Shown: in pieces, positions 12,844 through 56,220 of the stretch
Layout of the letters: each line of letters opens with the position of its first letter
Position numbering within the stretch: position 1 is the stretch's first letter
Position numbers and translations under genes: made by a program
NCBI GenBank assembly: GCA_008632985.1
Contig: QPGO01000015.1
Coordinates: forward strand, 187,998 to 251,997
DNA length: 64,000 bases
Reading direction: 5' to 3'
From: Psammoneis japonica
Taxonomy: Eukaryota
The notes under the pieces: generated by a model
What the model was told of the DNA's origin: nothing
Seen by the model: only the letters and a program-made list of their open reading frames with translations
Databases searched by the model: none

Positions 12844-13557
12844 TACTCACTTTCATCGTCGAAACACCAAGGGTACGACTGCAAAGCAGATATACTGTAA
12901 GTGCAACGCGTGGGAACAACAACGACAAAAACAACAGCAAACAGCGAAACAAATAATACTGTAAGATGCGGACGATGACGCGAGAAGCGCTCTTGCACAT
13001 GCGGACAGACGTCGGAGGGAGTTTTTGATTTTCAAAATTTATGTCCGTCCGGCGTTGCACGTGAAAAGCTACAAGCACCGACGGCGACCGACAGATGAAC
13101 AGGCACGATCCCGAACCAGAGCACCGCACACGCACACTGTTGAGCTGCTCTCTAGCTAGAGCTGCGTAGAGTCTCTGCCGATGCCAGCACCGTAGGCAGT
13201 GGGATGTCTTTCGGAGCGCAACCCTTGAAAGCTCATAAAAAGAGCTCGATCGCGAGTGCAGATTTTTGGAGCTTTGGATTTGGGGGATGACTCTCCTCGA
13301 TCTGCCTGGACAGCTGCTTGTGCTTTCCACAGGAATTCCGTCCTGCTCCTGTGGAAGCATGAACAAAAAAGATGCTCCAGATTCTGTCCAGGCACTGCTC
13401 TCTGTCTCTGCTCTAGCCCCACAGTGTGCTGGCTCTAGAGCCAGCAGTGGCTCTCTGCTCCTCTTGGGAGAGAGGGTTCATCGAAAATGACCAAAACCCC
13501 CAAAACGCACTGATTGACCAACTGATTTGGTCTCCAGCTAGAGCACAAATTCAGGCA

Positions 13558-16500: not shown

Positions 16501-17443
16501 CGTGAACATGGCGAAGTTGTTGGCCAGGCTTGCAGCTCACACTCCAAAGCATGCCCAGTCCCAGCAATCATGGACCAAGTCCATTGCCTCCATTCTTGCA
16601 GTGCCAACACCCGCACCCCACTGTGTGCAGTTTGTGTCGGCGCGCATTTGGACACATGTCGCCAGCTGCGCGATCACGAAAACTTCTTGCCCAAGGATGA
16701 CATGTCTCGCAGCCTCCACACCGGTGGTGCTGTGGCCTCACTGTGTGCCAAAGTCAACATGGACATCACATGCCTTGTCGGATGATGGAAATGAGATGCC
16801 ATGTTCCGACACTTGCGCGCACAAGCTCTCCCGTGTTGATTGCCGAGCTTTCAACAAAAGTTCCACACACTGTGGAAACTTCACTTTGTTGCCCAGTGCC
16901 AAAGTCCCGCCTGTCACACAAAATCTCATCAATCAAGCCGAGGCTCCTGCCACCCCAGCAAATCCTCGGCAAAACCCGCCCTCAGCTGCGCTTCTTGCCC
17001 CCACCCCTTTTTGCTCGTCGGCACTCCCAAGAGTGGTGGTGGGAGGCGGTTCTGGTGCACCAGGGAGTCACAGCAAAAACCCCAGCAAAGCACTGACACC
17101 ACCAGCCACTGCCTCCCAACTGTGGCAGGACGCAGCCCCCAGCAGCATTGGTGGCGAACAGCCATTGCAGCAGCAAAGTGGCAAGGACAGACGCGCCCAA
17201 CACCATCCGCAGCCTTGAACGGATCGGAGTGCAAACGGCATTCTCTGCCATTGCAACTCATCACCGCCTGTCGAGGCCACAGCAGCAGTTGTAATTTGAC
17301 CCACCACTCCCACCCAGGCCGCCTAGCAGGAGGCGGTTCCGGTGCTGGAGAGAGGGAGTCACGGCACAAACCCTGGTACAGTAAAGCGCTGATGCCACCA
17401 GCCACGTGCAGCCCCCAGCAGCGTTGCTTGGTGGCGAAGAGCC
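13558..17443 (+). mobile_element. Degenerate Ngaro/DIRS-group tyrosine-recombinase retrotransposon
   Basis: Split direct repeats A1 (13581-13690)...B1 (17042-17163) A2 (17186-17292) B2 (17329-17443). RT relic FLKADMADMIHKHCWTVLP, RNase H relic GTITNSDLKLSG, YR relic SLHTGGAVASLCAKVNMDITCLVG*WK*DAMFRHL. Confidence 0.85.
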
Positions 17444-37629: not shown

Positions 37630-38990
37630 GGGACTAAAGTAGGAAACGCATTCATTAACAAAAAAACGCTCTCATCATCGAATGGCAGTGTCAACGGGAA
37701 AAATGCAGTCCTCTTCGCGTGCGAAAAAGAGACGAGCAAACGGAGAGAAAAAGAGCAGAGAAGAAGGAAAGAAATTAATGATGCTGACCCAAAATAAAAT
37801 TTGCGGACCAGCCAACACTCGTCTTTGTGCCCCCACAAACATGTGTGGTGCCATGCTGCACCCAGGGTCGTGGCATTTTCAGGCACACCACTTCTCATGG
37901 CTTTTTGGTTGGCAAGAAAATTTGGTGAATGGGTTCACAGTTGTTGGTGGTGTGGATGCATTGCAGAAAAAGGGCTTTTGCCACAGCATGCCAAAAGGGG
38001 ACAAATTGTGCCACATGGGCAGAAGAAAAGCAGCGACTTCTTGGCCCACCCCTTTTCCAGCTGGGACCCCAAATGTCTTGGATGTCATTCTTTGAAAAAT
38101 GGCCACCAACAGAAAGTGGCAATGTGGAGTGTGTGACTTCATTCAAGCCCACACCTCCAACAAAGTGCCAGTGTGCAGCATGTCAGCTGCTGCGCTGCTG
38201 TGGTGGCAACAGGTTCAATGTCTCTTTGCTTTCTGCTCACCCCCTTCTCATGTCAAGTGCTGCCTGGCCAGCAAGTGCAAAATTTTTGCAGATGCCAAAG
38301 CTGCTGCTCTCCTTTTGAGGGCAAAAAAAATCGCGACAGCAAGAGAAAGCAACGCCGCGCCTCCAACAAAGTGCCAGTGTGCAGCATGTCAGCTGCTGCT
38401 GCCGCTGCTGTGGTGGCAACAGGCTCAATGTCTCTTTGCTTTCTGCTCACCCCCTTCTCATGTCAAGTGCTGTCTGGCCAGCAAGTGCAAAATTTTTGCA
38501 GATGCCAAAGCCGCTGCTCCTTTCAATGGCAAAAAAAATCGTGACAGCAAGAGAAAGCAGCGCTGCTCAAACACTCGTGCTGAATTTCCAGCTGGGGCTG
38601 GCTCTCCTGCTGCTGCAGTGACCCAAAAAAGCCAGTGGTGTGCAGGGAGAAATGAGCAGCAGGCATCCCAGCACTTCTTCTCTGTGTCAATGTGCGCCCT
38701 CGCTTTGCTGCCCTTCTCCCATCTTGGCTGCTCTGACTTTCAGCGCTGACAAAAATGAAAAAAGCAAAACAAAAAAAAAGCAGTGCCAGAGCTTTGCCAT
38801 GGCCACCCTTTGCTTTTTGCCATCACCAAGTTTTGCAAATGAGGCTGGCACAACTTGAACACGCAGCGCGTGCTGGCGGCACTTTGGCGGCCCGGAGCAC
38901 CCAGCGTACACATGCAAAAAAGAAAAAAGAGAGGCTTTGGTGCTTGGTGCCACCCGACCCACTTCAAGCAATGTCGTCGCAAATCCTGCG
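37630..38990. mobile_element. TpA-depleted repeat relic of unknown family
   Basis: Almost no TA between ~37810 and 38880; internal tandem duplication; no recognisable protein. Confidence 0.5.
38154..38560 (+). repeat. Two tandem copies of a ~206-bp unit
   Basis: CCTCCAACAAAGTGCCAGTGTGCAGCATGTCAGC... starts at 38154 and again at 38360. Confidence 0.95.
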
Positions 38991-39206
38991 CACAAATCAA
39001 AAAAGTCATAGTCATAGATTCTTCCTGTAAGAATGACTTCAAAATGCCCGAATGTCTCGGTCATAGTTCACAACCTAAATAATTGTAGTAGTTTCTCCGT
39101 CATGGTCATTGTGAAGAATGTCCCCAAAGACGAGGCACATTATTTTCGCCACAAAACCAAAGAACCATAAAGCGCACCACTCTCTGGTATCACGAAACTG
39201 AAGACC

Positions 39207-40163
39207 ATGAAAAGTACTCAGCGTCTAACAGCAACATCTCCTTCTGTCAGAGAGACTTCAAAGATAGATAAAGATGAAATCTTGGTTCGTCTCAAGGTCA
39301 TGCAATCACAGGAAGAATCAGCGACATATCGCTCCGCTGACTACCTTGGAGAAAACATGTTTTCGTCCAAATTTCGAGTAGACGAAGTTTGCCGTCTAAA
39401 AATGTGCCAATGGTGCTATCAGATTGTGAATCAGTGCAATCTTCAACGTGAAACTGTTGCTTTTGCCATGTCATACCTGGATCGATACCTGAGTACGCCA
39501 TCTGGAAGACACGTTTTATTTCAGGTTCGTCTATACCAACTTGCAGCTATGACTTCGCTTTATACTGCAATCAAGCTTCACGAGCCAATTGCCTTAGAGC
39601 CATCGGTGTTGGTAGATATAAGTCATGGTCACTACATGCTGGAAGAGATTGAAGAGATGGAGACCAGGATGCTCTTTTCGTTGAATTGGTTTGTGAACGA
39701 TCCTACCCCACAAGGCTTTGCAAGACTGATACTGTCACTTTTTCCAGACACGGTCGAGCTAGAATTGAAGGACGAGATTCATCGGAATACAATCTATCAG
39801 TTAGAACTTGCTGTTGCTCACTACGCCCTGTCGGGTACGAAGCCGTCGTCCATTGCTGTTGCTGCCGTTGCGAACGCCCTTGAAAGCGTTGAAAATGAAA
39901 AGATGAATTCAAGTATGAAGGAAGCGTTCTTGATCAGGCTCCAACAACAGTTCGAATTCGAGTTGAAGAGCCTGTCATATGTTAAAGCATCGCTAGGGCT
40001 GATTCTCCGCGGTGCTCAAAGTGATTTCGTTGACCAGACCAACTTTTGTCTATCTCCTCCTATCTCCAACCAAAGCGACATGTCTGGTTGTACTGGCGAG
40101 GCACTAGCCTCGAATACTTCAAGCCCTGTCTGTGTGCTGCGGGGTAGGCGAACACCCCAATGA
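39207..40163 (+). CDS. Cyclin (diatom-specific cyclin-like)
   Basis: Cyclin box CRLKMCQWCYQIV..LQRETVAFAMSYLDRYL..YQLAAMTSLYTAIKLHE..ME..ML..L.W..N.PTP. Confidence 0.93.
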   Translation: MKSTQRLTATSPSVRETSKIDKDEILVRLKVMQSQEESATYRSADYLGENMFSSKFRVDEVCRLKMCQWCYQIVNQCNLQRETVAFAMSYLDRYLSTPSGRHVLFQVRLYQLAAMTSLYTAIKLHEPIALEPSVLVDISHGHYMLEEIEEMETRMLFSLNWFVNDPTPQGFARLILSLFPDTVELELKDEIHRNTIYQLELAVAHYALSGTKPSSIAVAAVANALESVENEKMNSSMKEAFLIRLQQQFEFELKSLSYVKASLGLILRGAQSDFVDQTNFCLSPPISNQSDMSGCTGEALASNTSSPVCVLRGRRTPQ

Positions 40164-40435
40164 ATGATCTGTCATTCCCGGTTTCCTCAACATCGCTGTC
40201 AGATGAAAATCTGTACCTATTGCATAACTGATCATAAATCAAAGTCAATCAAATACAGTATTTCTACTGGGTCGTTTCAGATACACACATTCCAGCAACG
40301 ACAGAAAGCTCTGTCCGTTTTGCTGTTACGCACAAGCAAACGTTTCCATTCACAGTCCATACGGTAAACCGGCATGTCCTAATCTAATAAAGAGATCAAG
40401 GAACTTGAAAGCAACGCCGTTCGCGTTCTCGTCTT

Positions 40436-41098
40436 CTACTCGGCCCGAGATTTAGTTTTACTTGCCTTGAACTTTGGCCTCTTCGACCTCCTGGTGGTCA
40501 CTCGTTATGGTCCCTCTAGAGTAAGTTCCACGTCTTGAGTTTCCTCAGCTTGATTGGACAGAGTTTCTTCACCCGGGGGTTCATCAAAGGAATCTACAAT
40601 CTCCTCCAGGTGCGTTTCCATGTCTTGTTCAGGCGAAGGCTGCTGTGGTGGAGGAAGAGAGGTCTGAGACGATGCACTCTGCTCCGATTCACGAGACGTA
40701 TTTTCCGGTTGATCTGTCGACGACGAAGCCCCGACTTGTACTTTGAATACGGACAAATCTAAAACGACAAAAACAATAGAAATACCCATTCTTGTTAGCT
40801 CGGTCATGCTGATCAAGAATGAAGTCACTTTTCATCAGGATCTCACCTAGGGGGACCTTTGACTTTGGATCCAGCGCAAGAGCTACCAAATGCGGATGCT
40901 TTGAATTCTCCGATTGATATTTTCGTTTAAGCTGCTTCCTGCTGCGACTCTCAAAAAAGGACGCCATCGTCGCAAAGTCGGTACCAACCTGTCGCAATGC
41001 GTGGTAGAACAGTTTTGTCTCTTCTACAGTCCAGTGTTGCGGTGCCCGTCTAGAAACAAATGAATGATGAGAGGCTCCCACAACCGCAGTGTGTGATT
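40436..41098 (-). pseudogene. 5'-truncated duplicate of the BDP1-like gene
   Basis: Near-identical to 54882-55558 but breaks at 41098; premature stop near 40506. Confidence 0.85.
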
Positions 41099-44000
41099 GT
41101 TGCCGGCATTTTCTTATTCGTGATGACTTGATGTAATTCGACATGGTACTGTATGGAAACGTCGAAAATACCGTAGAGGTTTCGGTATGTGTCGTGGAGG
41201 ATTGCAATTATTGTTGATAAGGCAGTAGAAAGAAGAGAAGCAACTCCAAACTGCATTGTTGTTCGTTTCCAAGTACAGTGCTGTACTGCATGTGTGTCTG
41301 TGTGTACCGTATTACTCTAATAGTCTAATCTAGCATCCCCTTCGGTCGGCATTCTGATTAGTCTAACTTTTCGCGCCTCGTGATTTTCGCGTTGTTGAGT
41401 CAATCGCTGTGTCTCGGATAAAGAAACCAGCATGTTTTGGAACGCTTGTCTCTTACTTCAGTGGCACTTGGTTAATTGTTTAGAACATTGCGATGTCACT
41501 GAGATTGTGGTGGGTCACCAGCCCAATCACACTGGCAACCACTGTTTTCTGACACTCACCAGATGATTCAGCCTGGGGCAGCTTGCAATTTTGTCACTGG
41601 TGGTTTTGTGTGAAAGGATTTTTGACTGAACTTTGTCACTGCTTGTCAGCAGACTCTATCTGCTTACATTCCACCTGAGGCATCACTCTAAAAAGGACAT
41701 CCAGGTGATGCACTGGTGAGGCACTCGGAGCTCAGCTCAAGCTCCTTCCTCGAGCTGCAGCTGGTGGCGGTGTCACCTCACCCAGTTGAGTTAACCTGAC
41801 ACATTCAAGCCTTCACTTGGGGATGCCCAGACTGCTTGCAGAGCAAATGTCCACCACTCTGATTCTGTCAGTGCAAGAATCTGAAATTGCATCCAGCGCA
41901 AAGTTCGAGAGAGCTCCCCCCCAAGAGCTGGCTCCGCCAGCTGACTTTGAACAACATCTGCTGGTTCCGCCAGAAGACTGACCACCAGGTTTTCCAGTCT
42001 GCCCCTTGTGCCACCATCTTGGGCTCTGCACCACCCTGCAGCCCTTTTGAGACCCAAGAGAGCTCTTTGAGCTCACTTGTCCCAGCTGTAGATGACACGT
42101 TGGCCTGGTTCGACAGCATCGAGTGACCTGCTGGCAGCCATGGCTGGCCCAATCCTGTCAAGAGCCAGCCTCCACCGCAAGATCCTCTGCCTCCCCAGGA
42201 CAACAAGGGCACAGTCAGCTCTTCTGGGCTGCTCCCATGTGCCCACAATGATGATGAGGATGAGTCGTCTGATGATGAATCTGATGACGAGGGCTCCATG
42301 TGACCAGCTGACCGCTGTGCCATGCAATGCATGGCCACCATTTTTGCCATGGCACAATGCCCAAGACCAAGCCCAAGATCTTCAAGCCCAAGTCTCCCAA
42401 TGCAGGAGAAGTTGTCATTGCCAGCTCTGTGAAACAGGTGGCTTGGTCCAGGGGCAAGCCCAAGGCCAGCTGGTGTGGACTCAACCCCGCTGTTGCCACC
42501 ACTGCTCCCATGTCACACAATCAGCACCGCTCTTGCCATGTCCCAATCACACTCAAAGAAAAGCAAAAACTGTCAAACTGCTGGATTTTTTGCCAAGTTT
42601 GCATGCAAGGGAGATCTGTCAGTCTTTGAGAAGAGCAGAGCAGATCATTTGAAGGACTGCAGTGTGGATGCAGTCACTTGGCTCAACCCAAACAACTTGC
42701 TCCATCACAGGCACCCAACATGTGCTCCAAGTCCAGCACAGCTGAGCTGGTGGCTCCACAGCTTGCCAAGTGCAACAGCCGTGCAGCACTGCCAATGATG
42801 AGAACACAACAACTGTGTTCCTCACAAACTTGATTGAACTGGATTGGGTCACCTGGCTCAACTTGAAAATTGAAGACTCGGACCCATTCCCAAAAGTTTG
42901 AGAGAGCACTCATTGTCATTCTCCAAAGCCTGTCATCATGTGCTTCAAGGGTTCAATCCCCCACAAGCCCTCACAGTTCTTGGGACAAGACCTTCATGAG
43001 AGCTCCCAAAAAGGAGTTTGAGGTTGTCACAAAGGAGTTGGATGTCACTGGGTGGTGCAACAACAAATTGATGCTGACTCTTGTCAGCTCATGTTTGGAA
43101 GCTGAAGGCTTTGGCAAAAATGTTCAGCAGCTCAAGCACATGCTGCAAACTTTGAAAGAATGGCTTGACAACATGTCACTTGCAATTTCTTGCAAGTCCA
43201 AGTCTGACACTGAGCACATTGCCTTGCATGTTGATTCTTGATGCAAGCAACAAAGGAGACCCCAGTTGAGCAGCAAAAGTGCTGGTTGAGCTTTCAACCA
43301 ATCTCCCAGTTGGGCGGGCCTGCTGTGCAAGTCTGGCAAGTCAACAAATTTGTGAAGTGTTTTGGCTGACTCCAACGACAATGTTGAGTGACAACCTCAA
43401 TCTCTCACCTGCTGAAAAGGAGCCACTTAATTGGTGCTGTGGCCTTGGACACTTGACCTTTGAAAAGGTGCAATTTTTGACATGTGCTGGTGTTTTGGCC
43501 AAGTCTGAAAGTGTCTGTCATCTCCACAAAAGACTCTGTCAGCTTGATCATCCTTCTCTCTTTGCACTGCTTCCCACATCATCATTTGAGATCAAGAAGG
43601 AAGGAGCCTTGAAGAAAGAGCAGCTGCCCCCCCCTGAAAATGGCACCCACCACTGATCACTTTGTTTGTTCTGTGTGCTTTTTTGTCTGAAGCACACCTT
43701 TGGAAAAGAGGACACAAAGCATCAGCACTCAAGTGGTGCTGCTGTCTTTGTGGCCATGTGCCAGGTGCACAAATGTTTGACATTGAACTGACCTTAATTT
43801 CCATGAGACACTTCAAGCCACAAAATGGATTTTGAGGCCCATCATTGTGGCTTTGGCATCATTCCCCAAGCACATTTGAGCAAAATGACAGAAAGGCTCT
43901 CACTTTAGCTGATTTTTGCCAAGTCCACCTTGAATCTTTCACTGAAGTGTCAAGGTGCATCAGCACTGGAGCCCACCACCACAAAAACCAAGTGTTGCTG

Positions 44001-47000
44001 AATGTGCCACACATGCTGTCATGTCCATCACAAGGAGTGTGGATGCTGCCCTGTGGCCATTTGCCATCAACCACATGCTGTCCTGCTTTGCAGCACCATG
44101 CCTGGCCCTTCTGCTGATTGAGTCCCCAGGACATCTTTGCCAAGATGCAATTGCCAAGTGCTTTCAGGGCTGTCATGTTTTTGAGGTCACCCCCAGTTTG
44201 TGTTCTGGACAACAAAGTTGGCAATGGTGGCAGAAAGAAGTTGCCTGAATGGTGCAGCCCTGCACAAGCTGGCATGTCTGTGTGGGACTCAGCTCCAAGC
44301 ATGCATTGTCAGCCCCACCAGTCTTGAGTCTTGAAACTGGGGGCATCTCTCCACTGTTTCACACCATTTTTGACAATTTGTTTGCTGCTGTTCCTGTTGA
44401 GATCCAGACTCTCTCCCTGCCATTGGATCTCTAAAACAGACCACTTCCTTTGGAGACAGCACACATCAAGCAATGCATGCTGTGGACAAGGAAGACCAAG
44501 CAGAACAAGGAAGACCAAGCAGAAGTGAGTGCAAGTGTTGTGTTCTTGGGGAGTTGCAGATGCCACCACCCCACAGTTGCCGCTGGAGAACCTCTTTGAA
44601 TGGCTCCTTTGGCAAGCCAGGCTTCACCATCTCCACCCAGCCCACACCCAGTCCTCCTTTGGCATTGCCTGCACCCATGGAAAGAACCAACTCTCACCTT
44701 TGTTGGAGTCTTCTGCTGATCCTGCCATCTCAGACAATTTGCCTCAGAAGGAGAATGATTTGTGGGCCCTGCAATGTCTCCAAGTCCACAGAGGGAGCCT
44801 TCTGCCCCTCAAAATCTTTTCTCTCAACTCAGTCAAGAGAGGGAGGAGTTCCCTGCTGCACACCTCAACAGAGGGAGCAATGCCCCTCTCTCCCATTCTT
44901 CATGTCATTCAACCCAACAAAATCCCACTGCTCCCCAGCACCGTGGGTGCAATGGAACACAAGGAAGCAGACAAATCATGGCTCACTTTGCCAGTTTTCA
45001 TTGTGTCCACAAGTTTGATCATGGCTGCAACATTTCCATGCCCCCACTCCTTTGGCACTTGAGCCTTTGGTTGGCACCACACAAAATCAAGAATCTGCTG
45101 GGTGCCTTGTCATGAAAAGACAAAGCTGTGCAAAGCCCCAATTGCAAGAAGTGGCTTGACTTGGCCAAGATGGAGGTTGGCTGCACTGCCCTTGTCCATC
45201 AAGGAATGTGGTGGGCTGAAGCACCCACATCCAAAGCCAAACCAAGATTCTCCCCAACACTTGAGCATTTTGTTGCAAACTGTTGCCATCGGCTGAGATC
45301 AAGAAACTCAAGAAGGCTTGCTGTTGCTGTCATGGTGATCTTCAAGAAGAGGGAGTCTCCCCAATGCTTGTGCTCCTGTGGCTGCTGCATTGAGTGCTGT
45401 GCATTTGTTCCTTGTCTTGGTTGAGGAGTCTAATCTTGAGCTGGTCCACAGCACTGGCAGATTTTCAGCTTGGATTCATCAAGTCTGCCAAAGGTCTCAG
45501 AGTTTGTCTCAAGCTTGTCAAGAGTCTCTGTGAACTCTCCCACTCTGCCCCAAAATTGTTGTGTGAGCATTGTCCACGAGCCTTCCTTGACACCTGGAAT
45601 TTGTCCAGAGCAAGCATGATCTGCACCTCCTGCTCTGATCTATGATTGCCTTGTTGTGTGCATGCAGGTCAACAACTGTGGCATCATTGCAGTGCAAGAG
45701 CCCACCATCAATCAAGTGATCTTGCAGCTGTGGAGCAAAGGACTCAATCAAGAAAAAGACAATTGGTTTTTCATCAAGTTGTTGTGGGTTGATTGAGAAG
45801 ATCCTCTCAGCCACAGGAATGAAAGAGACTGCAGGCCCAATCTGCTTCCTGCTGCTGCTTGTCTGCAACATGTTTCTGTGCTTGACAAGAGCAGACCTTG
45901 TCAATTTAAAAAAAAAATTGCATGCTTGCCAATTGTTTCCACAGATCTTCAATTTACACAATTGTCAATTTTGTTTCTTGTCAGTTGTTGAGTTTGCCAG
46001 TTTTAAGTTGCCTGTGTGACTTGTTTTGTCATGCATTTTACAAACTTAAGTCTTTGTGCATTTTTTCTCTTTTCCTCACATTTGTGAGCTCTTTCCCTTT
46101 TGTTTTGCTCTGCTTCTGCCACATCTGTCCTTTTTTCCCACTGCACACCTCACAACCCATCCTCCAATCTAACACTTGGCAAATGGCAATGGCACGCCAT
46201 TGTCATGATCCACTCTGTCCCGGTTGGATGTCTGACAACAACAACCAGTGCACTCTCCACCGACATTTTCAAAGGTGTCCCCAGTGTTCTTCTTTCCTCC
46301 ATTTTGGCCTCAACAATGCATCTCCTTCTCCTGACCACTCCCTGAGCAACAGCGGTGCCTCCAGCTCTCTTGATGCATCAGGGCCTCTCCATCATTTCCT
46401 TGATTCAAGCACCAAAGGATCAATGTCCCTGTCTCTCCAGGATGGTGATTTGTCACACCTTTTTCCATTTCCTCCTGCCAGTGATCAATCCCAATGAACT
46501 GGGGGGGAGATTCCCCCTTTAATGACAACGTTGTTGATGCACATCACTCGCTGGATGTGGAAGAAGTTGGTGCTGGCTCTCTTGCTTGAGACCCACCCGA
46601 TGATCATTTCTGCTGTGACAATGTCCTTTTTCTGGAGGAGGAGTTCAATCTTCTCTCAGCACATCATTCTCACTCATCTTCTTCCCTCTCTGACAAGGAC
46701 AACATCAACAATCATGATGATGATGGGCTTGCACTGCTTTGATCCACTGGATTTGGAGGAGATGGAAGAAGCTCAACTGCTGGAACCTCCATGCATTTGT
46801 GAAACCAACACCACCAAAAAGCTTCACCCAGTGGAGGAAGAGCAGGTTAGGATGACAAAGAAGCATCATCTGTCTCACGGTTTGTGCAAGGATTTTCTTT
46901 CCTTGGCCAAATGCGCCAAGGAGAGTGGCTGTGAGCACAAGTCTTTGTCTGGCTCCACGGCCTTGTGATGCATGAAAACAAAGCATGCCAATTGTGTGGG

Positions 47001-49599
47001 CCTGGAGCACCCATTGTTTGCTCCACTGTGCATGTTGGACCCGTGTTCCCCCCAGCACATGTGTGCAGATTTTCCTTTCTGCATTGTGTGAGAAGGCTGT
47101 TCTGCAATCCCGAGGTTGTCCAGCAGCGTCAGTGGTCATGCCATAAAAAGTGCTGCCCCAAAACAAACAAGTGCATTGGCAACTCCCTTGACACTGGAGA
47201 CTGGTGGAAGCAAGCTTGGTGTGATCTCAAATGTTCCCTTGCTGATTTTGGCAATGGCTGCTCTTTTGGGTCTCACTTTGTTGGCCCAGTTGTGTGCTGT
47301 TTGACAATTCCACCCCATGTGACAACACAGGTCATCTGCGAGCACAACCCGTCCTTGCAACATTGGGCAATTTGAGTGATGAGAGTTGCTGCAGCCACTC
47401 CCTTGGCCAACACTTGGAATGGTGCTGCCACACCCAAAGACAAGCAATGAGTGCACCTGCTGCTGACCATCAGCCAAAGCTTGGACAGGAGACATGCATC
47501 AAGTTCCACCACAGCATGTTGTGGGAGACATTGACCAAGTTGCTTCAACTGTCAAAGCAAAAGACTGGTTTCCCAATTGTGATGCCATCTCTTGGCTTTG
47601 TCCATCTTCACTTTTGATTGTGCATGACAGTTGGCAATGCAAAAGGTCACAATGACATGGCTTGTCACTGCAACTCCCAGCATTCTGGCAACACATCTCA
47701 GACAAATGGGGGCTGTGACATGCTCAACACTTTGGTGACAATCCCTTGTTTGGCTGCAATTTGGTGGAAAAAGATGGCATCCAGGGGACAGCGGAGGCTG
47801 CCATGACAGCCATGGAGGAAAGGCACCACAGCAAAGTGACTGCAGCTTGTGAATGGTGCAAGGACATTTCACAGAACTTGGCTCATCCTGTGTTTTGGGA
47901 CCTCCCTCATGGTGGAGGACAGCATGGCACATTTGGCATGCTGCCCTGGGAACTGTTGCACGCCCTTTGCTTGAGCCTTTGCAAGCACCTCCTTCATGCC
48001 TTCTTCAACCTGTGCCAAGACCCAGAAAACAAGTTGTCATGGCATCATGACCTTTTGGTGATGAGGAATGCACAATGGATGACTGACTGTCTGGCACACT
48101 CAAGGAGCTTCCCAAGCCATTTGACAAAGCTGAGTTTGAGAGATGATTCAGAGTTGCCACACATGCATCCAGGAGGCAAAGTGATTGGAGTGAGCAAAGA
48201 ACTCCATTTGAGAATGGAGTTGCCAACCAGACTCATCCGTCTGGCCAAGAGCATGTCTTTGGAACTGGATGTGGCATTGTCCCTGTCATCAAACAAGGAA
48301 ATCCTTCTCACTCGGCTGCAGAAATGCATTCTCAAGCATCTGCAATTGTTTCAATTTGTTGTCGGCCCATTCTGAGAGTGTTGTTCTTGGTCTGGACTTT
48401 GTGCATCCAAGCTCCATGGCTTTTTGCACTTTCTGTTTTACACCCATCAGTGCGGCAATGCCAACAATTTTTTGGGGGGGTTTCTGTGAAGCTCTTCTTG
48501 GGACACTTCAGAAACAACCTGCTAAAAAACCAGTCATTGGCTAGATGGGATTGGCCTTGATGTGATGAATCATTGCTGTGAGGAGGACCTTGTTGCAAGG
48601 GAATCAGAAAAGGATTTGTTGGATGCAGGTTGGCTGCATGAAAAAGATGATCAGGCTCCTGCACCCCAGCCATCAAATCATGGATGCACAGACCCTGTCA
48701 CAGGATTCAAACCACTCAAATCTGCAATGACAGCCACTCGGGCCACAGACGCATCTGGCAACAATGCCGCATGGTCTGCAAAATGTGGAGATGAACAGCT
48801 GCAGAGACCTTCACATCCCTGTTTGTTCCAGGCAATTGTGGCAATGAGTGGGTGGCATCTTTGCTCCATCATGCAGAACATGATGATGCCTTCCCCGCTG
48901 AGCTTGTGAACTTTCACTTTGGACATGATGCTCCGGGCCCTGGGGATGATGAACATTGCATTTGCTCCAACAAGATGCCACCCAAACTTTCACTCACATT
49001 CCATGGAAATGAAGGAGTTGGCACAACTGGGCACCACAGTGAAGTGGGATGAGGAGCAAATGAGCTGTTCGGTCACAGCTCGTGTGTTGTGGGTGACCTT
49101 AGAAGATCAAATGATGGAACAAAAATCTGCAGTTTTTGCAATTCAATCACTTCAGAGCTTCACCCCCAACAAAGATTCTCTCTTGACCTTTTTCATGGGC
49201 AATGAAATGGAGTCAGAAATCAGAGTTGTTGATGCCAGGGACATGTTGTCTGCCACCTTTGTTCTTCCGTCAAACAAGGTTGCCACCATGAAAATGTGGG
49301 ACACAAGGTGAGGCACAAGAAGAGAAAGAGGAAATGAGTGTCAGATGCACAGAGCATGGAGCTCGGGCTGACAATGCAAATGACTGGCATTTTTGCGAAT
49401 CTTTGCACACAGACATTGTGATGCATGCTGAGGCAAAAAGGGAGATGGGCAGCAGGGGCGGCACAAAGGTGAGTGGAAACAGTGTGAGAAACAAGCCATT
49501 TGGAAACAGAAGAGATGCAAAACTCTGGTCAATCGTGTGCTGTTTTCTCTTGTTGCAGGCAATGCTTTGGCCACCAAATGGGAAAAATGAAAGAGAGGC

Positions 49600-49692
49600 T
49601 GCAGCCTGGAATGGACACTCTTGGAAAGAGCTTGTGTGAACAGAGATTGCAGCCTGGAATGGACACCCCTGGAAAGAGCTTGTGCAGAGAGT
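49600..49692 (+). repeat. Two copies of a ~48-bp tandem repeat
   Basis: TGCAGCCTGGAATGGACAC.C.TGGAAAGAGCTTGTG occurs twice. Confidence 0.9.
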
Positions 49693-50195
49693 GACAGCAA
49701 CCACAAGGGAGGACACCATCATGACCAAAACACCAGGACACAATCATGCATGGATTGCAGAGGACAAAGGGGAACTGGTGGGATGTGCAAGAGAAAAACA
49801 AGAGTGGGGAACAGGAACCAAAAGAGCATCATTCAGTGCCAAAACAAGATGACAAAACCAGTGCAAACAAGCAGCACACAGCCACTGCACAACAAGGTCA
49901 ACACGGCTGATGCACATCATTGTTGTCAGACCTGAACAAATGCGCACTTGTTGAGAAAGACACAATTGCAAATCACAGGTTTCATTTGTTGTTGTTTCCC
50001 ACTTGGAAGGTCAGTTTGAACATGAACAGAAACACAACTGTTGTTAGAATGAGCAGCAATGGGGAATTGTCAAGATTGCACACACAATGAGACTGATTTA
50101 TTTTGAGCATTAAATCCCACTTGGAAGGTTAAAACAAGGGTTGAAGACCCTTCACACACAATCAATTGGCACTTGTTAACCTTTCAACCACCACA

Positions 50196-50659
50196 GAGCA
50201 AATCTCCATAGGTGGAGATTAGCTCCACTTGAGGAATTGTGATGTGTCAGCAATTCACATGATGATGCAATGAGCACAGCACAAAAATGTCACATCATGC
50301 ACAATCTGCACAAAATGCACCACATGCACTTGCTCATTGTGAGCAAATCTCCAGTGGTGGAGATTTGCTCCAAGGGTGTGGCACTTTTTGCTCTGTTGCA
50401 ATGACAGCTCATCACAAACTGGGTTGTCACAGGTTGAGATGCAGTTCCTCTCTGTTCACAGATGAAGCATGCAAAAAACCCGGTGTCAAAAGTTGACATT
50501 GAACTTTCAAAATTGCAAGAATGGTCCCCCAGTGCTCTTTCTGCAAATGCTCGTTCAAAACAAAATTGTGCAAAAATGTTTGCCGTGCATGTCCAAAAAT
50601 GTTTCATTTTGCACATTTGTGATGCAAGCAAGCAAATGTCCATGGGTGGAGATTTGCTC
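50196..50659. repeat. Three copies of a 30-bp palindrome
   Basis: GAGCAAATCTCCA-N4-TGGAGATTTGCTC at 50196, 50341 (perfect) and 50630. Confidence 0.9.
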
Positions 50660-53429
50660 AAGTCCGGTGGTTGAAGGGTTAAGAAAATGGGGTTCTCATT
50701 GAGTGCACATGAATTCTGAACAAGAGCCACACTGTTTTCCAGATGCTGGCCCTTCAAAATGGGAATGCTCTTGTGCCTGTCTGCTGACACTTACCCTGAC
50801 ATGTCTGTTGCCATCAACCAGATCACACAGCCCAACTCACCACCAAAACAGGTGCACGGCACTGTGTCCAAGACTCTGATTTGACACCTCAAGAGGACTT
50901 GCAACCAGAAAATGCCTCTGTCTCCCATGGGTCTTCTTGAACTTGACCTTCAGTGGATGCTGATTTTGCCAGCCCATTTCTCAGTGAGCCAGACACAGAT
51001 CTCAGTCTGGTGTGGTTGCACACCAGATGCTTGGTCACTCCAAGTGGCTGCCAGTTGGTCTGGAATTCACAGCTTCAGACAGCCTCTGTGTTCTCAACTC
51101 TTGAAGCTGAATGTCAAGCTGCATCCTGCACTCTTTGGACTCTCTTCCCATTGAAGAACATGCTCCTCTCAGAGGTGGTTTCTGTCCTTTTTTGTCTCCC
51201 AAGATCTCAGGACCCCTCTGTCTGTGCCTGAGTTTTCAAAGACAACCAAAGAGCCTTTTCTGTCTCGCTGCCAATTGCCACACTGCCAACCACACCAAGC
51301 ACTTCTCACCAAGCCATGCTGGTTGTGGGCTCACTGCAACGAGTTTGTGGTGTGGTCAAGGTGGAGTTGGCTGGCCAACTTGAGCAACTGATTGAAGAAG
51401 GCTGCTTCTCATGTTTGTTGCATGCTGTGGCTTGAGTCATGATGCAAGAGCTGTGCTCTGAATTTGTGCCAATTGTGCAAGAAGCTTCTTCATTTTTGCA
51501 AATTTTCAGTCAGTTGCTGGAATCTGTGAGTGAGAGGGAGAGATGTGGGCCCATTCACACATTTGTCCAGCAACCAAGTCTGCCCATGTGTCTGCTGCAC
51601 ACTTCCGTTGTTGGCCAGAGCTCAAACCAAAATTTTTTTGCACCACATTGACCCCATCATTGAGTTGGTCACTGTGTCTTGGTTGAGAGACCAGCACATG
51701 CTGAAACACTCATTTCTTGCTTCAGCAGTGCTTGGCCAATTATTTGGAACATTGTTGTCACTGGTGAGATTGTGCTGGGTTGCCAGCGCAGTGTTGCTCG
51801 CTGCATGAGCAACAATTGTTTTTTTCTGACACTCACTGGATTCAGTCCACATGGCTGACAACTGGTGACTGGCAGTTTTGTGAAAGGATTTTTGACTGAA
51901 CTTTGTCGCTGTTTGTTGGCAGACTCAATCCACTTGTGTTCTGCCTGATGCATTGCACTGGAGCAGACATCCAGGTGATGTGCTGGCAAGGTGCTTGGAG
52001 CCCCCCCCCCCCACACAGACAGACAGACAGACACACACACACACAAGCTTCAACTCACGGTGGTGAGCAGCAAGGTGCCACATTAAAACGCACACCAGCA
52101 GTGCTCTCACATCTGGCATCCAGCATGTCCAGCATCGGCACACTGCAACTGGACTGCAGCAGGCTGTCTCTGGAGAGCAAAGGCATGCATCATGCAACAT
52201 GGTCGGCCCTGTGAGAGGATGGCTCAGCTGCCCCACACAGTCTTTGCTGTTTGGCGCACTGGTGATGATGGATTCTTCTGGATGTGTGATCTGGACAACT
52301 GTGCACCGGCAACCAAAGAGCAAAAAAATGTGCCTGAAAGAAACTTGAGCAGGAAAATTCAAAAGAAATGACCCTTGACCCACCATTTTGAAATCATGGT
52401 GCAGACTTTCATGTGCAACAGAAAAGGGGAAAAGAGACGCCCTTCTTTTTGACTCCCTGGGCTGGTTCAACAGCTGGGCATGACTGGCTTTGCCTCAACA
52501 ACCACCACATGGGGGGTTTCTCTGTGCAAGCAACTTCACTCAATCAGCCAGGCTTCTGTTTCTGTCTCACAACAAGGCACTGCTGTCTCCTGCCTTTTGG
52601 GTCACCTGTCATTCTCTTGACAATCTTTGTCATCTCCTTTTGTTGTTGCTGTTGCCTGGCAACTGATGTCTGTTGATGCAATGCAACAGCAGCTTCAGAC
52701 CCAGGTTCTTGAGGTTTGTCTCAAGAGTCACCACCACAATCTTGCTCTGGCAGGGCACCCTTGACTGAGACTCAAGCAAGTCATGTCAAGCGTGCCGCAA
52801 AAGAGCCCAACTTGCAAATTTTTCAATCCACTCAAAATGTGTTTGAAAGATTTGTTGCTGTTGTCATCACATGCTTGTTTTGTGCTCCACAAACCAGTGA
52901 CAGGGCTGACCTTGTTGAGGGCAAACAGCAACCTGCCAAGGCTGAAGCAATGCAGGCCTTGAACAAACCAGCATGGTTGCACCACACCAGCCAGAAAAGT
53001 CACAAACTTGCTGAGGGATCTTTTGTTTTTGCCTTTTTGCACTGTTGTTTGAAGACACAACACAAACTTGGCCACACAAGCAAGAGGCACAATCATGGAG
53101 TTTTTTCCACCAACATTTGAGCTTGAGAAGCTCTGCAGTTAAAAAAGGAGCCAGCACTGCTCTTAAAAAACAAGTTGAGGTGCCAAGCAGAAAGAAAGAC
53201 AAAGGTGGCTCTTGCAATGAGATGCCAGCCAACAACAATGAAGTTGGAAAAACAGGTTGTTTGAGCTGCCATCTTTCTTGATTCTTTTCTTTGGCAACAG
53301 GTTGAAGGTGGGCTGGGCTGGGAAATGCAAAATCCAAAAAAACAGCCCACAAAGAACTGCGCCACAGATTCACAAGAAAACGTCAAAATGATGCCATCAT
53401 GGTGGCCAGGGAGCTTTGCACCACCTGCG

Positions 53430-54603
53430 TTCCTGCAAGAGCAACTTCAAAATGCCCCAATGTCTTGGTCTTGGCTCCTCATGCCCTGAACAACAGCCGC
53501 AATTTCTCTGCAATGGTCACTGTGAGCAATGCCCCAAGAGGCACATGTCATTTTTGCTGCAAAATCAACAGAGCCACAAAAGTGCACCATCCAACTCTGT
53601 GGCATTACAAAATTGAAAACAATGAAATGCACCCAGCAGCATCTGACATTGACAATGTCAACATCTCCTCCTTGTGTCCAAGAGACTTCACAGACAAAGT
53701 TGAAACTTGGCTCTTCTCAATTTTGCACTGTCAAAGGAAGAATCAACAACATGTTGCTCTGCTGGCTGCTGAGTGACTTGGAGAAAACATCTTTTCTTCC
53801 AAAGTTTGAGCAGACAGAGCTTGTCATCTAAAAATGTGCCAGTGGTGCTGTCAGATTGCAGGTCAGTGCAATCTTCAATGTGGAGCTGTTGTGGTTGCTG
53901 AGTCACACTTGGATCAATGCCTGAGTGTGCCACCTGGCAGACCTCATGTTCTGTTTCAGGTTCATCTGTTCCAACTTTGTAACTCACTTCACACTGCAAT
54001 CAAGCTTCATGAGCTAATTGCCTTGCAGCCATTGGTGTTGGCAGAAATCAGTCTCATGGTCACTGCATGCTGGAGAGAAGAGATTGAAGAGATGGAGAAC
54101 AGCTCACGCCCTTTTCTCTCAATTGGTGTGCAAACAACCCTGCCCCACACGGCATTGCAAGCCTGATGCTGTCACTTTTCCCAGACACAGTCGAGCTGGA
54201 ATTGAAGGATGAGATTTGTTGGATCACGAACTGTCAGTCAGAGATTGCTCTTGCTCACTGCGCTCTGTCGGGTGCGAGGTCGTCGTCCATTGTGCTGTTG
54301 CTGCCATTGTGAACCCCCTTGAAAGCATTGAAAACGAAAACATGAATCAAGCACAAAGGAAGCGTTCTTACTCAGGCTCCAACAACAGCTCGAATTCGAG
54401 TTGAAGAGATGTCACATGTTAAAGCATTGCCAGTTGGGCTGATTCTCCACCGTGCTCAAAGTGATTTCGATCACCAGACCAACTTCTATTTATCTCCTCC
54501 AATCTCCAACCAATTCGACATGTCTGGTTGTATTGGCGAGGCACTATTATCGAACACTTCAAACCCAGTCTGTGTGATGCGGTGTAGGCGAACACCCCAA
54601 TGA
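53430..54603 (+). pseudogene. Hypermutated cyclin duplicate, including upstream sequence
   Basis: Collinear with 39020-40163; has frameshifts and systematic TA and CG changes. Confidence 0.93.
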
Positions 54604-54881
54604 ATGATCTGTCATTCCTGGTTCCTCTGGGAAGGCATGTATATCGCAGTCAAATGAAAATCTTTAGCTATAACTACTCACAAATCAAAGTCAATCAAAT
54701 ACAGTATTTCTACTGGGTCGTTTCAGATACACACATTCCAGCAACGACAGAAAGCTCTGTCCGTTTTGCTGTTACGCACAAGCAAACGTTTACAACACAG
54801 TCCATACGGTAAACCGGCATGTCCTAATCTACCAAAGTGATGAAGGAACTTGCAAACAACGCCGTTCGCCGTTCCCGTCTT

Positions 54882-56220
54882 CTACTTGGCCCGAAATTTA
54901 GTTTTACTTGCCTTGAACTTTGGCCTCTTCGACCTTCTGGTGTTCGTTCGTTTTGGTCCCTCTAGAGTAAGTTCAACGTCTTGAGTTTCCTCAGCTTGAT
55001 TGGACAGAGTTTCTTCACCCGGGGGTTCATCAAAGGAATCTACAATCTCCTCCAGGTGCGTTTCCATGTCTTGTCCAGGCGAAGGCTGCTGTGATGGAGG
55101 AAGAGAGGTCTGAGACGATGCAGTCTGAGACGATGCACTCTGCTCCAATTCACGAGACGTATTTTCCGGCTGATCTGTCGACGACGAAGCCCCGACTTGT
55201 ACTTTGAATACGGACAAATCTTAAACGACAAAGACAATAGAAATACCCATTCTTGTTAGCTCGGTCATGCTGATCAAGAATGGAGTCACTTTTCATCAGG
55301 ATCTCACCTAGGGGGACCTTTGACTTTGGATCCAGCGCAAGAGCTACCAAATGCGGATGCTTTGAATTCTCCGCTTGATATTTTCGTTTAAGCTGCTTCC
55401 TGCTGCGACTCTCAAAAAAGGACGCCATCGTCACAAAGTCGGTACCAACCTGTCGCAATGCGTGGTAGAACAGTTTTGTCTCTTCTACAGTCCAGTGTTG
55501 CGGTGCCCGTCTAGAAACAAAGGAATGATAAGAGGCACCCACAACCGCGGTGTGCGATTCTTCTTCCACCACATGCTGGAATTCCTCTTCCACTTCTTGA
55601 ACTGGGACCCGTGCACCCGGGACAACCATACTGGACTCCTGTAACACAATTTCTCCATTGATAACCTGCACAACCGGCCCACTTGAAGTTACTGCAGCTT
55701 CTGCTTGAGCTGCGTCTGGAACCGGCTCGGCGGCCGCGTTCTCCTTTTGCTTCTGACGTTTCTCCTTCGAACGGAACTTGCTACAAAAAGCCTGTAATGT
55801 GTTTTGACCAGGTAAGGCTGAGGGAACATCAGGCTCCGGAACGACAGACGGTTGCGCAACAGCAGTTCCATCCTCTTGTGCGACTTCTTCATCGTGCTCT
55901 CGTACCGGACGAGAGACACCAATGGCCACCCCGGTTGACGCCTTGCGCTTTTTCCCTCCGCTTCGCCGCGGCGCTTTCGCCAGTGAAGAATCATTTGTAA
56001 CATTAGAGCTTACATCTTGATCTTCCGAATCTGGAGGTTGTTCGTTTGATGTATCTTGATTATTCGAGAGTACTGATGCTTCCTCCTCAACGTCCTCGCT
56101 GGGAGGTGGAGGGGCAGCGGTGACCACAGAAGTGGGAGGATTTCTGGGTTTTCGTTGGTTGGCGGGGCGGAACGTCGGTCGACCTTTCCTGCTACTTTTG
56201 TTCGATCTGTTGCTAGACAT
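54882..56220 (-). CDS. BDP1: TFIIIB B'' subunit (SANT-like domain), intron 55220-55307
   Basis: GPVVQVINGEIVLQESS, WTVEETKLFYHALRQVGTDF..M..FF..RSRKQLKRKY..E. Confidence 0.85.

What the first reader, a model, noticed from the sequence alone, without database searches (positions are those of the whole stretch)
54180..54700. Mutation gradient at the block edge, with TpA loss reaching farther than CpG loss
Seen: in the pseudogene's 5' part both CG and TA are gone. At 54190-54440 TAs are converted but many CGs remain (CTACGCCCTGTCGGGTACGA -> CTGCGCTCTGTCGGGTGCGA). Beyond ~54480 both mostly survive, and the rest of the duplication is near-identical. Inference: the trigger is proximity to the TE block (spreading) rather than duplication itself, since the partner copy at 39.2-40.2 kb is untouched. 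The spreading stops before BDP1.
Basis: partly seen in the sequence, partly recalled or inferred. Interest (0 to 1): 0.75.

Follow-up and report, generated by a model that had tools for sequence, protein, structure and literature searches.

The report
Hypermutation border inside a duplicated diatom gene
In what looks like a diatom genome, a mutation process that erases every TA and CG step from a silenced repeat block has also run about 1 kb into a spare copy of a neighbouring cyclin gene and stops abruptly, which shows it acts on DNA in place and follows a domain border rather than foreign or repeated sequence as such.

Summary
Copy B of a 2.1-kb duplication (53430-55562) was compared with its intact partner A (39022-41101). 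Up to 54415, B has lost 41 of 42 TpA sites. Up to 54188, it has lost 26 of 26 CpG sites. Nearly all became TG or CA.

Between 54190 and 54450, TpA is lost at 9 of 10 sites but CpG at only 9 of 18. Beyond 54450 both survive.

TpA loss ends as a step (54415|54420), not a gradient. CpG loss in the last 260 bp is patchy. "TpA reaches farther" is only marginal here: Fisher p=0.048, chosen post hoc; label permutation 287 of 2000.

The border is not an assembly join, because an independently built unitig spans it. It is not the end of a gene-conversion tract either, because background divergence is continuous across it (8.9% vs 7.2%).

Best reading:
- An adenine-directed A>G process centred on TpA acts within a chromatin domain. 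The only description found in print is in Bigelowiella natans.
- Ordinary CpG decay acts in the same domain.
- Both extended from the block into the redundant gene copy.

Proximity alone is not sufficient, because copy A touches hypermutated blocks at both ends and is untouched. The "TE" label is unverified.

The parts
53430..54189 (+). Fully converted 5' part of cyclin pseudogene copy B. It is homologous to the upstream region and N-terminal two thirds of the cyclin in copy A.
   Evidence: TA kept 1 of 34; CG kept 0 of 26; most became TG/CA. Frame is broken. No Pfam hit is left.
54190..54450 (+). Transition zone. TpA is still converted, with the last converted site at 54415 and the first kept at 54420. 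CpG is half converted, in alternating patches.
   Evidence: TA lost 9 of 10; CG lost 9 of 18. Per-site list.
54451..54881 (+). Unconverted 3' end of the cyclin copy plus the intergenic stretch up to the BDP1 stop codon.
   Evidence: YR-type changes 7 of 418 columns against 88 of 969 in the converted zone (p=4e-8). Other divergence is 7.2% against 8.9% (p=0.34).
54882..56220 (-). BDP1-like gene (Myb_DNA-bind_7 domain) with an 88-nt intron at 55220-55307. This is the intact copy.
   Evidence: ORFs. Pfam PF15963 E=5.3e-22. A contig of run X2 skips 55220-55307, with GT..AG on the minus strand.
39022..41101 (+). Partner copy A: intact cyclin gene (ORF 39207-40163) plus a truncated 3' fragment of the BDP1-like gene. 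Not converted.
   Evidence: TA and CG o/e are normal.
41492..53429 (.). Large hypermutated block B3. TA o/e 0.05, CG o/e 0.12, CA o/e 1.73 and TG o/e 1.84.
37796..39008 (.). Hypermutated block B2, ending 13 bp before copy A. TA o/e 0.01, CG o/e 0.36. CpGs return from 38862, about 145 bp before TpAs do.
13540..17291 (.). Hypermutated block B1. TA o/e 0.02, CG only down to 0.40. It is bounded by a direct repeat of about 110 bp (13575-13685 / 17180-17291).
41395..41731 (+). Left copy of a direct repeat of about 340 bp. Its first roughly 95 bp (to 41491) are unconverted and the rest is converted. The left border of block B3 therefore runs through it.
51660..52001 (+). Right copy of the same repeat, fully converted. 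It differs from the left copy mainly by TG<->CA swaps.
   Evidence: 14 of 22 adjacent double mismatches are CA<->TG.

Best explanation
Two mutation processes act in place on the DNA of a silenced domain. The domain covers the 12-kb block at 41.5-53.4 kb, and it has come to include the adjoining, redundant cyclin copy B.

Process 1 changes adenine to guanine, overwhelmingly at TpA (TA>TG or TA>CA depending on strand).
- It has a weaker side activity on other adenines.
- It is fast enough to saturate, so its footprint ends as a sharp step at 54415/54420.

Process 2 is C>T strictly at CpG.
- This is the signature of deamination of methylated cytosine.
- It is slower, or weaker at the rim of the domain. 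It is complete to 54188 and about half complete in the last 260 bp.

On this reading, the apparent "TpA reaches farther" is a difference in saturation within one shared domain, not a difference in reach.

The domain stops about 430 bp short of the 3' end of the expressed BDP1-like gene. It does not enter the functional cyclin copy A, although A touches converted DNA on both sides. The border is therefore set by an active-gene chromatin barrier, by purifying selection, or by both.

What is shown and what is inferred:
- Shown: the substitution spectra, the borders, and the in-place origin.
- Inferred: the enzyme (an ADAT/TadA-like adenine deaminase, as proposed for Bigelowiella natans), the involvement of methylation, and what sets the border.
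For: SPECTRUM (A to B)
- In 53430-54450, per-strand A>G at TpA is 37 of 86 and C>T at CpG is 29 of 88.
- Converted zone against the adjacent 54451-54881:
  - non-TpA A>G: 35 of 440 against 2 of 187 (p=3e-4)
  - non-CpG C>T: 24 of 323 against 9 of 149 (p=0.70)
  - transversions: 43 of 937 against 21 of 414 (p=0.68)

BLOCK COMPOSITION
- Only four dinucleotides deviate in the blocks. TA and CG are down; TG and CA are up to 1.55-1.96.

IN-PLACE, INDEPENDENT EVENTS
- Two repeat pairs differ mainly by TG<->CA swaps: 14 of 22 and 3 of 4 adjacent double mismatches.
- Strand outcomes in copy B are random: 35 TG, 30 CA, runs z=-0.08.

POLARITY
- At conserved cyclin positions A equals seven homologues and B is derived.

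NOT AN ARTEFACT
- One unitig covers 52056-54613 with 0 other letters at even depth 69.5.
- Non-YR divergence is continuous across the border, 8.9% against 7.2%, p=0.34.

TpA LOSS MORE COMPLETE THAN CpG LOSS ELSEWHERE
- B1 has TA o/e 0.02 with CG 0.40. B2 has TA 0.01 with CG 0.36.
- At the right edge of B2, CpGs return at 38862 but TpAs only at 38907/39009.
- At the left edge of B2, the last TpA is at 37795 and CpGs continue to 37869.

PRECEDENT
- TpA>TpG/CpA hypermutation of integrated viral DNA was measured in mutation-accumulation lines of B. natans.
- There, 210 of 211 single-nucleotide mutations in the NCLDV region were A>G or T>C.
- That genome also has TpA-poor, CpA+TpG-rich clusters, and the authors propose an ADAT2-like candidate (bioRxiv 10.64898/2026.01.13.699255; Results and Discussion read).
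- Diatom TEs are controlled by DNMT5a-dependent methylation (PMC9998398, abstract and passages).
Against: - This is a single locus. There is no outgroup at DNA level; the best cyclin relative is 44% identical.
- The TpA-versus-CpG difference at this edge is marginal: p=0.048 post hoc, permutation 287 of 2000.
- At the left border of B3, TpA and CpG stop together (41481 and 41491). The offset is therefore not universal.
- No methylation, chromatin or expression data exist for the two cyclin copies.
- The blocks could not be shown to be TEs or viruses.
- In B. natans all hypermutations fell on TpA and no CpG component is mentioned. The non-TpA A>G excess and the CpG loss seen here have no counterpart there.
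- The patchy CpG pattern is not a monotonic decline.
Confidence: 0.6

Rival explanations
1. One process with a distance-dependent dose. A single machinery, for example a deaminase able to act on both A and C, spreads outward from the block. It converts TpA more efficiently than CpG, so CpG conversion fades first as the dose falls.
For: - Both signatures share the same blocks, and at the left border of B3 they share the same end within 10 bp.
- Both produce TG/CA.
- The B. natans preprint cites ADAT2 enzymes reported to edit both A and C in DNA.
Against: - C>T is strictly CpG-limited, whereas A>G leaks to other contexts. That pattern fits two chemistries.
- Blocks B1 and B2 have TpA fully gone with 36-40% of the expected CpG left along their whole length, not only at their rims.
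- The B. natans process shows no C>T component.
- TpA loss shows no dose tail. It is a step.
Confidence: 0.15
2. No spreading. The first ~1 kb of copy B was itself part of the targeted unit. It might have been co-transcribed with the block, covered by its small RNAs, or recognised as a repeat in the way RIP recognises repeats. The border would then be the end of that unit.
For: - The converted part starts exactly at the duplication breakpoint, continuous with the block.
- TpA loss ends as a step, as an element boundary would.
- RIP-type systems do target duplicates (PMC7296669, passages).
Against: - The partner copy is unconverted, and so is the remaining 1.08 kb of shared sequence (94.5% identical) in both copies.
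- No sequence feature marks 54415-54450 in either copy.
- At the other side of the block, the border cuts through a repeat copy instead of following its end.
Confidence: 0.12
3. Selection alone draws the borders. The process strikes broadly around blocks. Only lineages in which the functional cyclin A, its promoter and the BDP1 3' region escaped have survived.
For: - Converted DNA stops about 200 bp upstream of the ATG of cyclin A.
- It stops 430 bp downstream of the BDP1 stop codon.
- The one host segment that was hit is a redundant copy.
Against: - About 1.3 kb of apparently functionless DNA right of cyclin A is also unconverted, although it adjoins the block. This stretch holds the truncated BDP1 fragment 40400-41101 and the unique sequence 41102-41481.
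- The borders are sharp to within 5-10 bp.
Confidence: 0.1
4. Artefact: the step is an assembly join, or the end of a recent gene-conversion tract that restored the right part of copy B from copy A.
For: - Identity rises to 97-98.7% at the far right of the duplication.
- Read depth doubles where the two copies are near-identical.
Against: - A Logan unitig of 3958 nt covers 52056-54613 with no other letters and one 1-nt insertion. The run may be the assembly's own source, but the unitig was built independently.
- Divergence other than TA/CG changes is 8.9% left of the border and 7.2% right of it (p=0.34). It drops only at the BDP1 coding part, to 2.3% (p=1e-4).
Confidence: 0.03

Closest known systems
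Localised TpA>TpG/CpA hypermutation of integrated viral DNA in Bigelowiella natans (Mettrop et al., bioRxiv 10.64898/2026.01.13.699255, 2026)
   Same: - A>G/T>C changes centred on TpA.
- The long-term footprint is clusters that are TpA-poor and CpA+TpG-rich.
- The changes are confined to discrete regions of a nuclear genome.
- The targets are silent or unannotatable DNA.
   Different: - Different supergroup branch. The window's ATP-citrate lyase is closest to diatom/ochrophyte sequences and its cyclin to diatom-specific cyclins.
- Here TpA loss is essentially complete (o/e 0.01-0.07, against Rho 0.45 for the B. natans NCLDV region).
- Here it is accompanied by CpG loss and by an 8% A>G rate at other adenines.
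- Here it demonstrably covers host-derived DNA, a cyclin duplicate.
- The preprint's text holds no occurrence of CpG, diatom, flanking, boundary or border. Its supplements were not seen.
Leakage of fungal repeat-induced point mutation (RIP) into flanking single-copy DNA
   Same: A genome-defence-like hypermutation runs out of its target into neighbouring sequence and can destroy a nearby gene. [quoted passage not shown]
   Different: - RIP is C>T at CpA and so creates TpA. The process here destroys TpA.
- RIP is triggered by duplication and hits both copies. Here the partner copy and the shared remainder are untouched.
- RID and premeiotic timing could not be tested. Diatom DNMT4 is related to RID but its function is unknown (PMC9998398).
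CpG decay by deamination of 5-methylcytosine in methylated repeats
   Same: C>T is restricted to CpG inside the blocks. CpG is normal (o/e 0.99) in the gene-rich remainder of the window. This fits methylation confined to repeats, as reported for diatoms (PMC9998398, abstract).
   Different: It explains only the CpG half of the signature. Methylation itself was not measured.
ADAR/ADAT-type adenosine deaminases (5'-neighbour preference U>A>C>G; the preference order is recalled and is also stated for U in the preprint's Discussion)
   Same: The observed A>G rates by 5' neighbour follow the same order: T 0.45 > A 0.10 > C 0.08 > G 0.06.
   Different: - The substrate here must be genomic DNA in place.
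- The differences among A, C and G are not significant.
- No enzyme was identified, because no genome is held for this window.

Membership tests
B. natans-type TpA hypermutation | Transitions A>G/T>C that fall on TpA, giving TpG or CpA | tested here: met
   36 of 42 TA sites up to 54415 became TG or CA. The per-strand rate at TpA is 0.45 against 0.06-0.10 at other adenines. Specificity is not absolute: non-TpA A>G is 35 of 440.
B. natans-type TpA hypermutation | Clusters of TpA-depleted, CpA+TpG-enriched sequence at kb scale | tested here: met
   Blocks of 3.75, 1.2 and 12.9 kb have TA o/e 0.01-0.07 and TG+CA o/e about 1.6-1.95.
B. natans-type TpA hypermutation | Targets are integrated viral, transposon or other foreign DNA | tested here: inconclusive
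   No Pfam family was found in ORFs or in read-through frames of the blocks: all six frames of each block, over 41500-53430 for B3. The converted cyclin copy, a known gene, also gives none, so the test is blind here. Two direct-repeat pairs exist. About 1 kb of host-derived DNA is included.
B. natans-type TpA hypermutation | Currently elevated mutation rate (about 1e-7 to 1e-6 per site per generation) in some lines | not testable with these tools
   This needs mutation-accumulation lines or population resequencing.
Fungal RIP | C>T mainly at CpA, enriching TpA | tested here: not met
   TpA is eliminated. C>T at CpA is 13 of 137 in the converted part 53430-54415, no higher than the other non-CpG contexts there (0.06-0.09), against 0.33 at CpG. 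Non-CpG C>T as a whole does not differ from the adjacent zone (24 of 323 against 9 of 149, p=0.70).
Fungal RIP | Triggered by sequence duplication and mutates both copies | tested here: not met
   Copy A is unconverted. The 1084 aligned columns still 94.5% identical are unconverted in both copies.
Fungal RIP | Leaks into adjacent non-repeated sequence | tested here: met
   This is an analogous behaviour. The converted zone runs 986-1020 bp into the cyclin duplicate. It shows a resemblance in behaviour only, not membership.
5mC-deamination CpG decay | C>T confined to CpG | tested here: met
   CpG 29 of 88. Non-CpG 24 of 323 against 9 of 149 in the adjacent control (p=0.70).
5mC-deamination CpG decay | The region is cytosine-methylated | not testable with these tools
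   No bisulfite or methylation-aware run was available. Only three coded runs of one sample were listed.

The most novel reading that the evidence does not exclude
Diatoms have a genome-defence hypermutation of the kind so far described in print only for a chlorarachniophyte: adenine deamination at TpA in genomic DNA.
- It is addressed by chromatin domain, not by sequence. The domain is the same one that carries CpG methylation.
- It therefore engulfs any DNA that falls into the domain, including host genes, and it halts at active genes.
- If so, the system would be shared across the SAR supergroup.
- It would also be a previously unrecognised way in which gene duplicates next to repeats are killed in diatoms.
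Probability: 0.4. Interest if true: 0.85.

Novelty: new variant of a known kind. Interest (0 to 1): 0.66.

Why it matters
A natural paired comparison, with an intact copy beside a converted copy of the same 2 kb, gives per-site resolution that bulk composition cannot give. It shows four things:
- The TpA-erasing process acts on chromosomal DNA in place.
- It is not restricted to foreign or repeated sequence.
- It has a border sharp to a few bases.
- It shares that border, to within 260 bp, with CpG decay.

This turns the open question raised by the B. natans work, namely how the target is chosen, into a testable one: map 5mC and heterochromatin across 37-57 kb and see whether the border sits at 54.2-54.45 kb.

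It also extends the signature to what appears to be a diatom. My searches of the paper library found no RIP-like mutation process reported for that group.

Tried and rejected
- WHOLE GENOME. None is held for this window. No genome-wide edge metaprofile and no search for deaminase or DNMT genes could be done.
- EARLIER NOTES OF THIS SCAN. There is nothing on this genome and nothing similar by sequence. The word searches returned only unrelated phage cases.
- PFAM ON THE BLOCKS.
  - 76 ORFs of blocks B3 and B1 gave only two sub-threshold hits: DUF3299 at 16.9 bits and OTT_1508_deam at 16.3 bits against a cut-off of 27.
  - Six read-through frames each of B3, B1 and B2 gave 0 families.
  - I reject this as evidence against a TE or viral origin, because the converted cyclin copy also scores nothing.
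- HOMOLOGY LEFT OF THE DUPLICATION BREAKPOINTS. Transition-tolerant local alignment scored 147, against 121-167 for shuffled sequence and 143 for reversed sequence. There is none.
- SECOND-NEIGHBOUR PREFERENCE. In copy B the changed adenine lay on the strand with C two bases upstream in 15 of 17 informative sites (p=0.002). Trinucleotide composition of the blocks did not reproduce this (F(C) 0.49-0.51 against 0.50 expected). It is an unreplicated lead.
- tRNA AND RFAM SCANS OF THE WINDOW. 0 hits. No RNA-gene barrier is apparent at the borders.
- EXPRESSION. No RNA holder is listed. Contigs of run X2 lie only on 54802-56292, and one of them is spliced. The lack of cover on the cyclin copy is not evidence of silence.
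- LTR-RETROTRANSPOSON READING OF THE PAIR 41395-41731 / 51660-52001. I saw no clear termini or target-site duplication by eye, so I left them as "direct repeats".
- LITERATURE. Five searches for a TpA/CpG hypermutation or a RIP-like process in diatoms returned only the B. natans preprint and the diatom DNMT paper.
Full report
WHAT IS THERE

The window is gene-dense eukaryotic DNA.
- Its ATP-citrate lyase is 88% identical to unnamed environmental proteins. Among named organisms it is 83% identical to a Bacillariaceae MAG and 74-78% to a raphidophyte, Ectocarpus and Phytophthora.
- The cyclin discussed here is nearest to diatom-specific cyclins, best 44%.
- I therefore treat the organism as a diatom or close ochrophyte. 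No genome is held for it.

Four stretches have almost no TpA and reduced CpG, with TG and CA raised to 1.55-1.96 times expectation. All other dinucleotides and the base composition are ordinary.
- B1, 13540-17291: TA o/e 0.02, CG o/e 0.40.
- B2, 37796-39008: TA o/e 0.01, CG o/e 0.36.
- B3, 41492-53429: TA o/e 0.05, CG o/e 0.12.
- A weak patch at 58003-58457.

THE DUPLICATION

Segment A (39022-41101) and segment B (53430-55562) are direct copies (aligned).
- A carries an intact 318-aa cyclin (39207-40163; Cyclin_N E=7.7e-16) and a truncated 3' piece of a BDP1-like gene.
- B carries a broken cyclin and the complete BDP1-like gene on the minus strand (54882-56220; Myb_DNA-bind_7 E=5.3e-22).
- The BDP1-like gene has an 88-nt intron that a contig of run X2 splices out.
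- No homology continues to the left of either breakpoint, even with transition-tolerant scoring.

CHECKING THE OBSERVATION

I took each TA and CG of copy A and read its state in copy B.

| Zone in B | TA kept | TA to TG/CA | CG kept | CG to TG/CA |
|---|---|---|---|---|
| 53430-54189 | 1 of 34 | 28 | 0 of 26 | 22 |
| 54190-54450 | 1 of 10 | 8 | 9 of 18 | 7 |
| 54451-55560 | 35 of 42 | 3 | 50 of 54 | 4 |

- In the unconverted zone the reverse differences are as frequent: 7 sites where B has TA or CG and A has TG or CA. There is no tail beyond 54450.
- The best step model puts the TpA border at 54415|54420 and the CpG border at 54188|54192.
- TpA loss is therefore a step, not a gradient.
- CpG loss after 54188 alternates in patches of kept and lost sites.
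- The claim that TpA loss reaches farther is marginal at this edge. Fisher gives p=0.048 on a zone defined after the fact. When TA/CG labels are shuffled among sites, 287 of 2000 shuffles give a change-point offset at least as large as the observed 227 bp.

IS B THE DERIVED COPY?

Yes.
- At cyclin positions conserved in seven homologues, copy A agrees with them and copy B does not. One example is MSYLDRYL in A and in all homologues, against ESHLDQCL in B.
- Pfam no longer recognises B at all.

ARTEFACTS

- A Logan unitig of 3958 nt from run X1 covers 52056-54613. It has no differing letters, one inserted base, and even depth 69.5.
- Depth roughly doubles from 54567, where the two copies become nearly identical.
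- X1 may be the sample behind the assembly. Even so, the unitig was built independently, so the border is not an assembly join.
- Gene conversion fails as well.
  - Differences that are not TA/CG/TG/CA interchanges make up 8.9% of columns (86 of 969) in the converted zone and 7.2% (30 of 418) just right of it (p=0.34).
  - They fall to 2.3% (15 of 666) only in the BDP1 coding part (p=1e-4).
  - The interchange-type differences drop from 88 of 969 to 7 of 418 at the border (p=4e-8).

THE MUTATION SPECTRUM

Within the converted zone, three classes of change are in excess over the adjacent zone.

| Class | Converted zone | Adjacent zone | p |
|---|---|---|---|
| A>G at TpA (per-strand) | 37 of 86 | 3 of 39 | not computed |
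| C>T at CpG (per-strand) | 29 of 88 | 1 of 39 | not computed |
| A>G at other adenines | 35 of 440 | 2 of 187 | 3e-4 |
| C>T outside CpG | 24 of 323 | 9 of 149 | 0.70 |
| Transversions | 43 of 937 | 21 of 414 | 0.68 |

(All.)
- By 5' neighbour, the A>G rate runs T 0.45, A 0.10, C 0.08, G 0.06.
- Which strand is hit is random from site to site: 35 TG and 30 CA outcomes, runs z=-0.08. The events were therefore independent, not strand-coordinated bursts.
- The simplest reading is two chemistries. One is directed at adenine, with a strong but not absolute TpA preference. The other is CpG-limited, as expected for deamination of methylated cytosine.

THE BLOCKS WERE CONVERTED IN PLACE TOO

- The direct repeats 41395-41731 / 51660-52001 and 13575-13685 / 17180-17291 differ chiefly by TG<->CA swaps: 14 of 22 and 3 of 4 adjacent double mismatches.
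- Such swaps are what independent resolution of the same ancestral TA or CG in two copies would leave.
- What the blocks once were is unknown. Pfam finds nothing in ORFs or in read-through frames, but the converted cyclin shows that this test has no power here.

BORDERS ELSEWHERE

- The left border of B3 runs through the repeat copy. 41395-41491 is unconverted against its converted partner. TpA and CpG stop together there, at 41481 and 41491.
- At the right edge of B2, CpGs are back at normal density from 38862, but TpAs return only at 38907/39009.
- At the left edge of B2, the last TpA is at 37795 and CpGs continue to 37869.
- B1 and B2 have no TpA but keep 36-40% of expected CpG throughout.
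- I saw no edge with the opposite order.
- The general statement "TpA loss is more complete than CpG loss" therefore holds across the window. It looks like a difference in rate or saturation rather than in spatial reach.

WHAT DECIDES WHERE IT STOPS

- Copy A lies between B2 (13 bp away) and B3 (its flank ends at 41481). It is untouched, including about 1.3 kb with no evident function.
- Copy B is converted for about 1 kb. The conversion ends 430 bp beyond the BDP1 stop codon.
- Proximity to a block is therefore not enough, and duplication is not the trigger.
- My inference is that the processes follow a silenced chromatin domain whose limits are set by active genes, with purifying selection possibly sharpening them.
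- This step is inferred, not shown.

COMPARISON WITH WHAT IS KNOWN

- The TpA half matches the hypermutation measured in Bigelowiella natans mutation-accumulation lines.
  - In that study the changes were TpA>TpG/CpA in an integrated giant-virus region and a virophage region.
  - The authors describe genome-wide TpA-poor, CpA+TpG-rich clusters and propose an ADAT2-like deaminase (bioRxiv 10.64898/2026.01.13.699255; Results and Discussion read).
  - The preprint's text has no occurrence of CpG, diatom, flanking, boundary or border.
- Fungal RIP resembles this only in leaking into flanks (PMC7296669, passage). Its chemistry and its duplication trigger were tested here and not met.
- Diatoms encode RID-related DNMT4 of unknown function. 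They silence TEs through DNMT5a-dependent methylation (PMC9998398, abstract and passages).
- Five library searches found no report of such a process in diatoms.

VERDICT

- The finding is real in substance, and it is more interesting for what it implies than for the claimed gradient.
- The paired copies show a TpA-erasing process working on chromosomal DNA in place. It overruns host DNA, stops at a border sharp to a few bases, and shares its domain with CpG decay.
- The specific claim that TpA loss reaches farther is weakly supported at this edge. It is better read as faster saturation.

Noticed in passing
window 56650-57013: A 364-bp stretch with a single TpA (at 56826) but abundant CpG (29 sites, o/e 1.17-1.31) and TG+CA o/e 1.41-1.59. 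It lies upstream of the BDP1-like gene. It may be TpA loss without CpG loss, or it may be an unrelated compositional feature.
   Followed up: partly
window 56379-56500: Word depth in run X1 jumps to about 2943, against about 58-70 for neighbouring unique DNA, and many loose ends start here. A short element here is therefore very high-copy in that run. There is no tRNA or Rfam match.
   Followed up: partly
window 58003-58457: A small patch with 3 TpA in 455 bp, CG o/e about 0.58 and TG+CA o/e 1.65. It is a weaker version of the block signature.
   Followed up: no
window 38154-38566: A tandem duplication of about 205 bp inside block B2. The copies are 95.6% identical and differ by three CG/TG sites and one TG<->CA swap. 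Part of the conversion therefore came after this duplication.
   Followed up: partly
window 16174-16782 (+): An ORF inside block B1 gives a sub-threshold Pfam hit to OTT_1508-like deaminase (16.3 bits, cut-off 27) over a CPLC-containing stretch. It is probably spurious, because conversion to TG makes cysteine codons abundant.
   Followed up: partly
window 53442-54354: There are eight TG<->CA swaps between copies A and B. All lie inside the converted zone and none lies outside it. From the 7% background loss in copy A, I estimated by hand that about 3 would be expected. The excess hints either at repeated re-resolution of newly arising TA/CG in the domain or at light conversion of copy A.
   Followed up: partly
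window 54409: The run's unitig carries one extra C behind 54409 relative to the window. This is a possible 1-nt assembly error or polymorphism inside the pseudogene.
   Followed up: no
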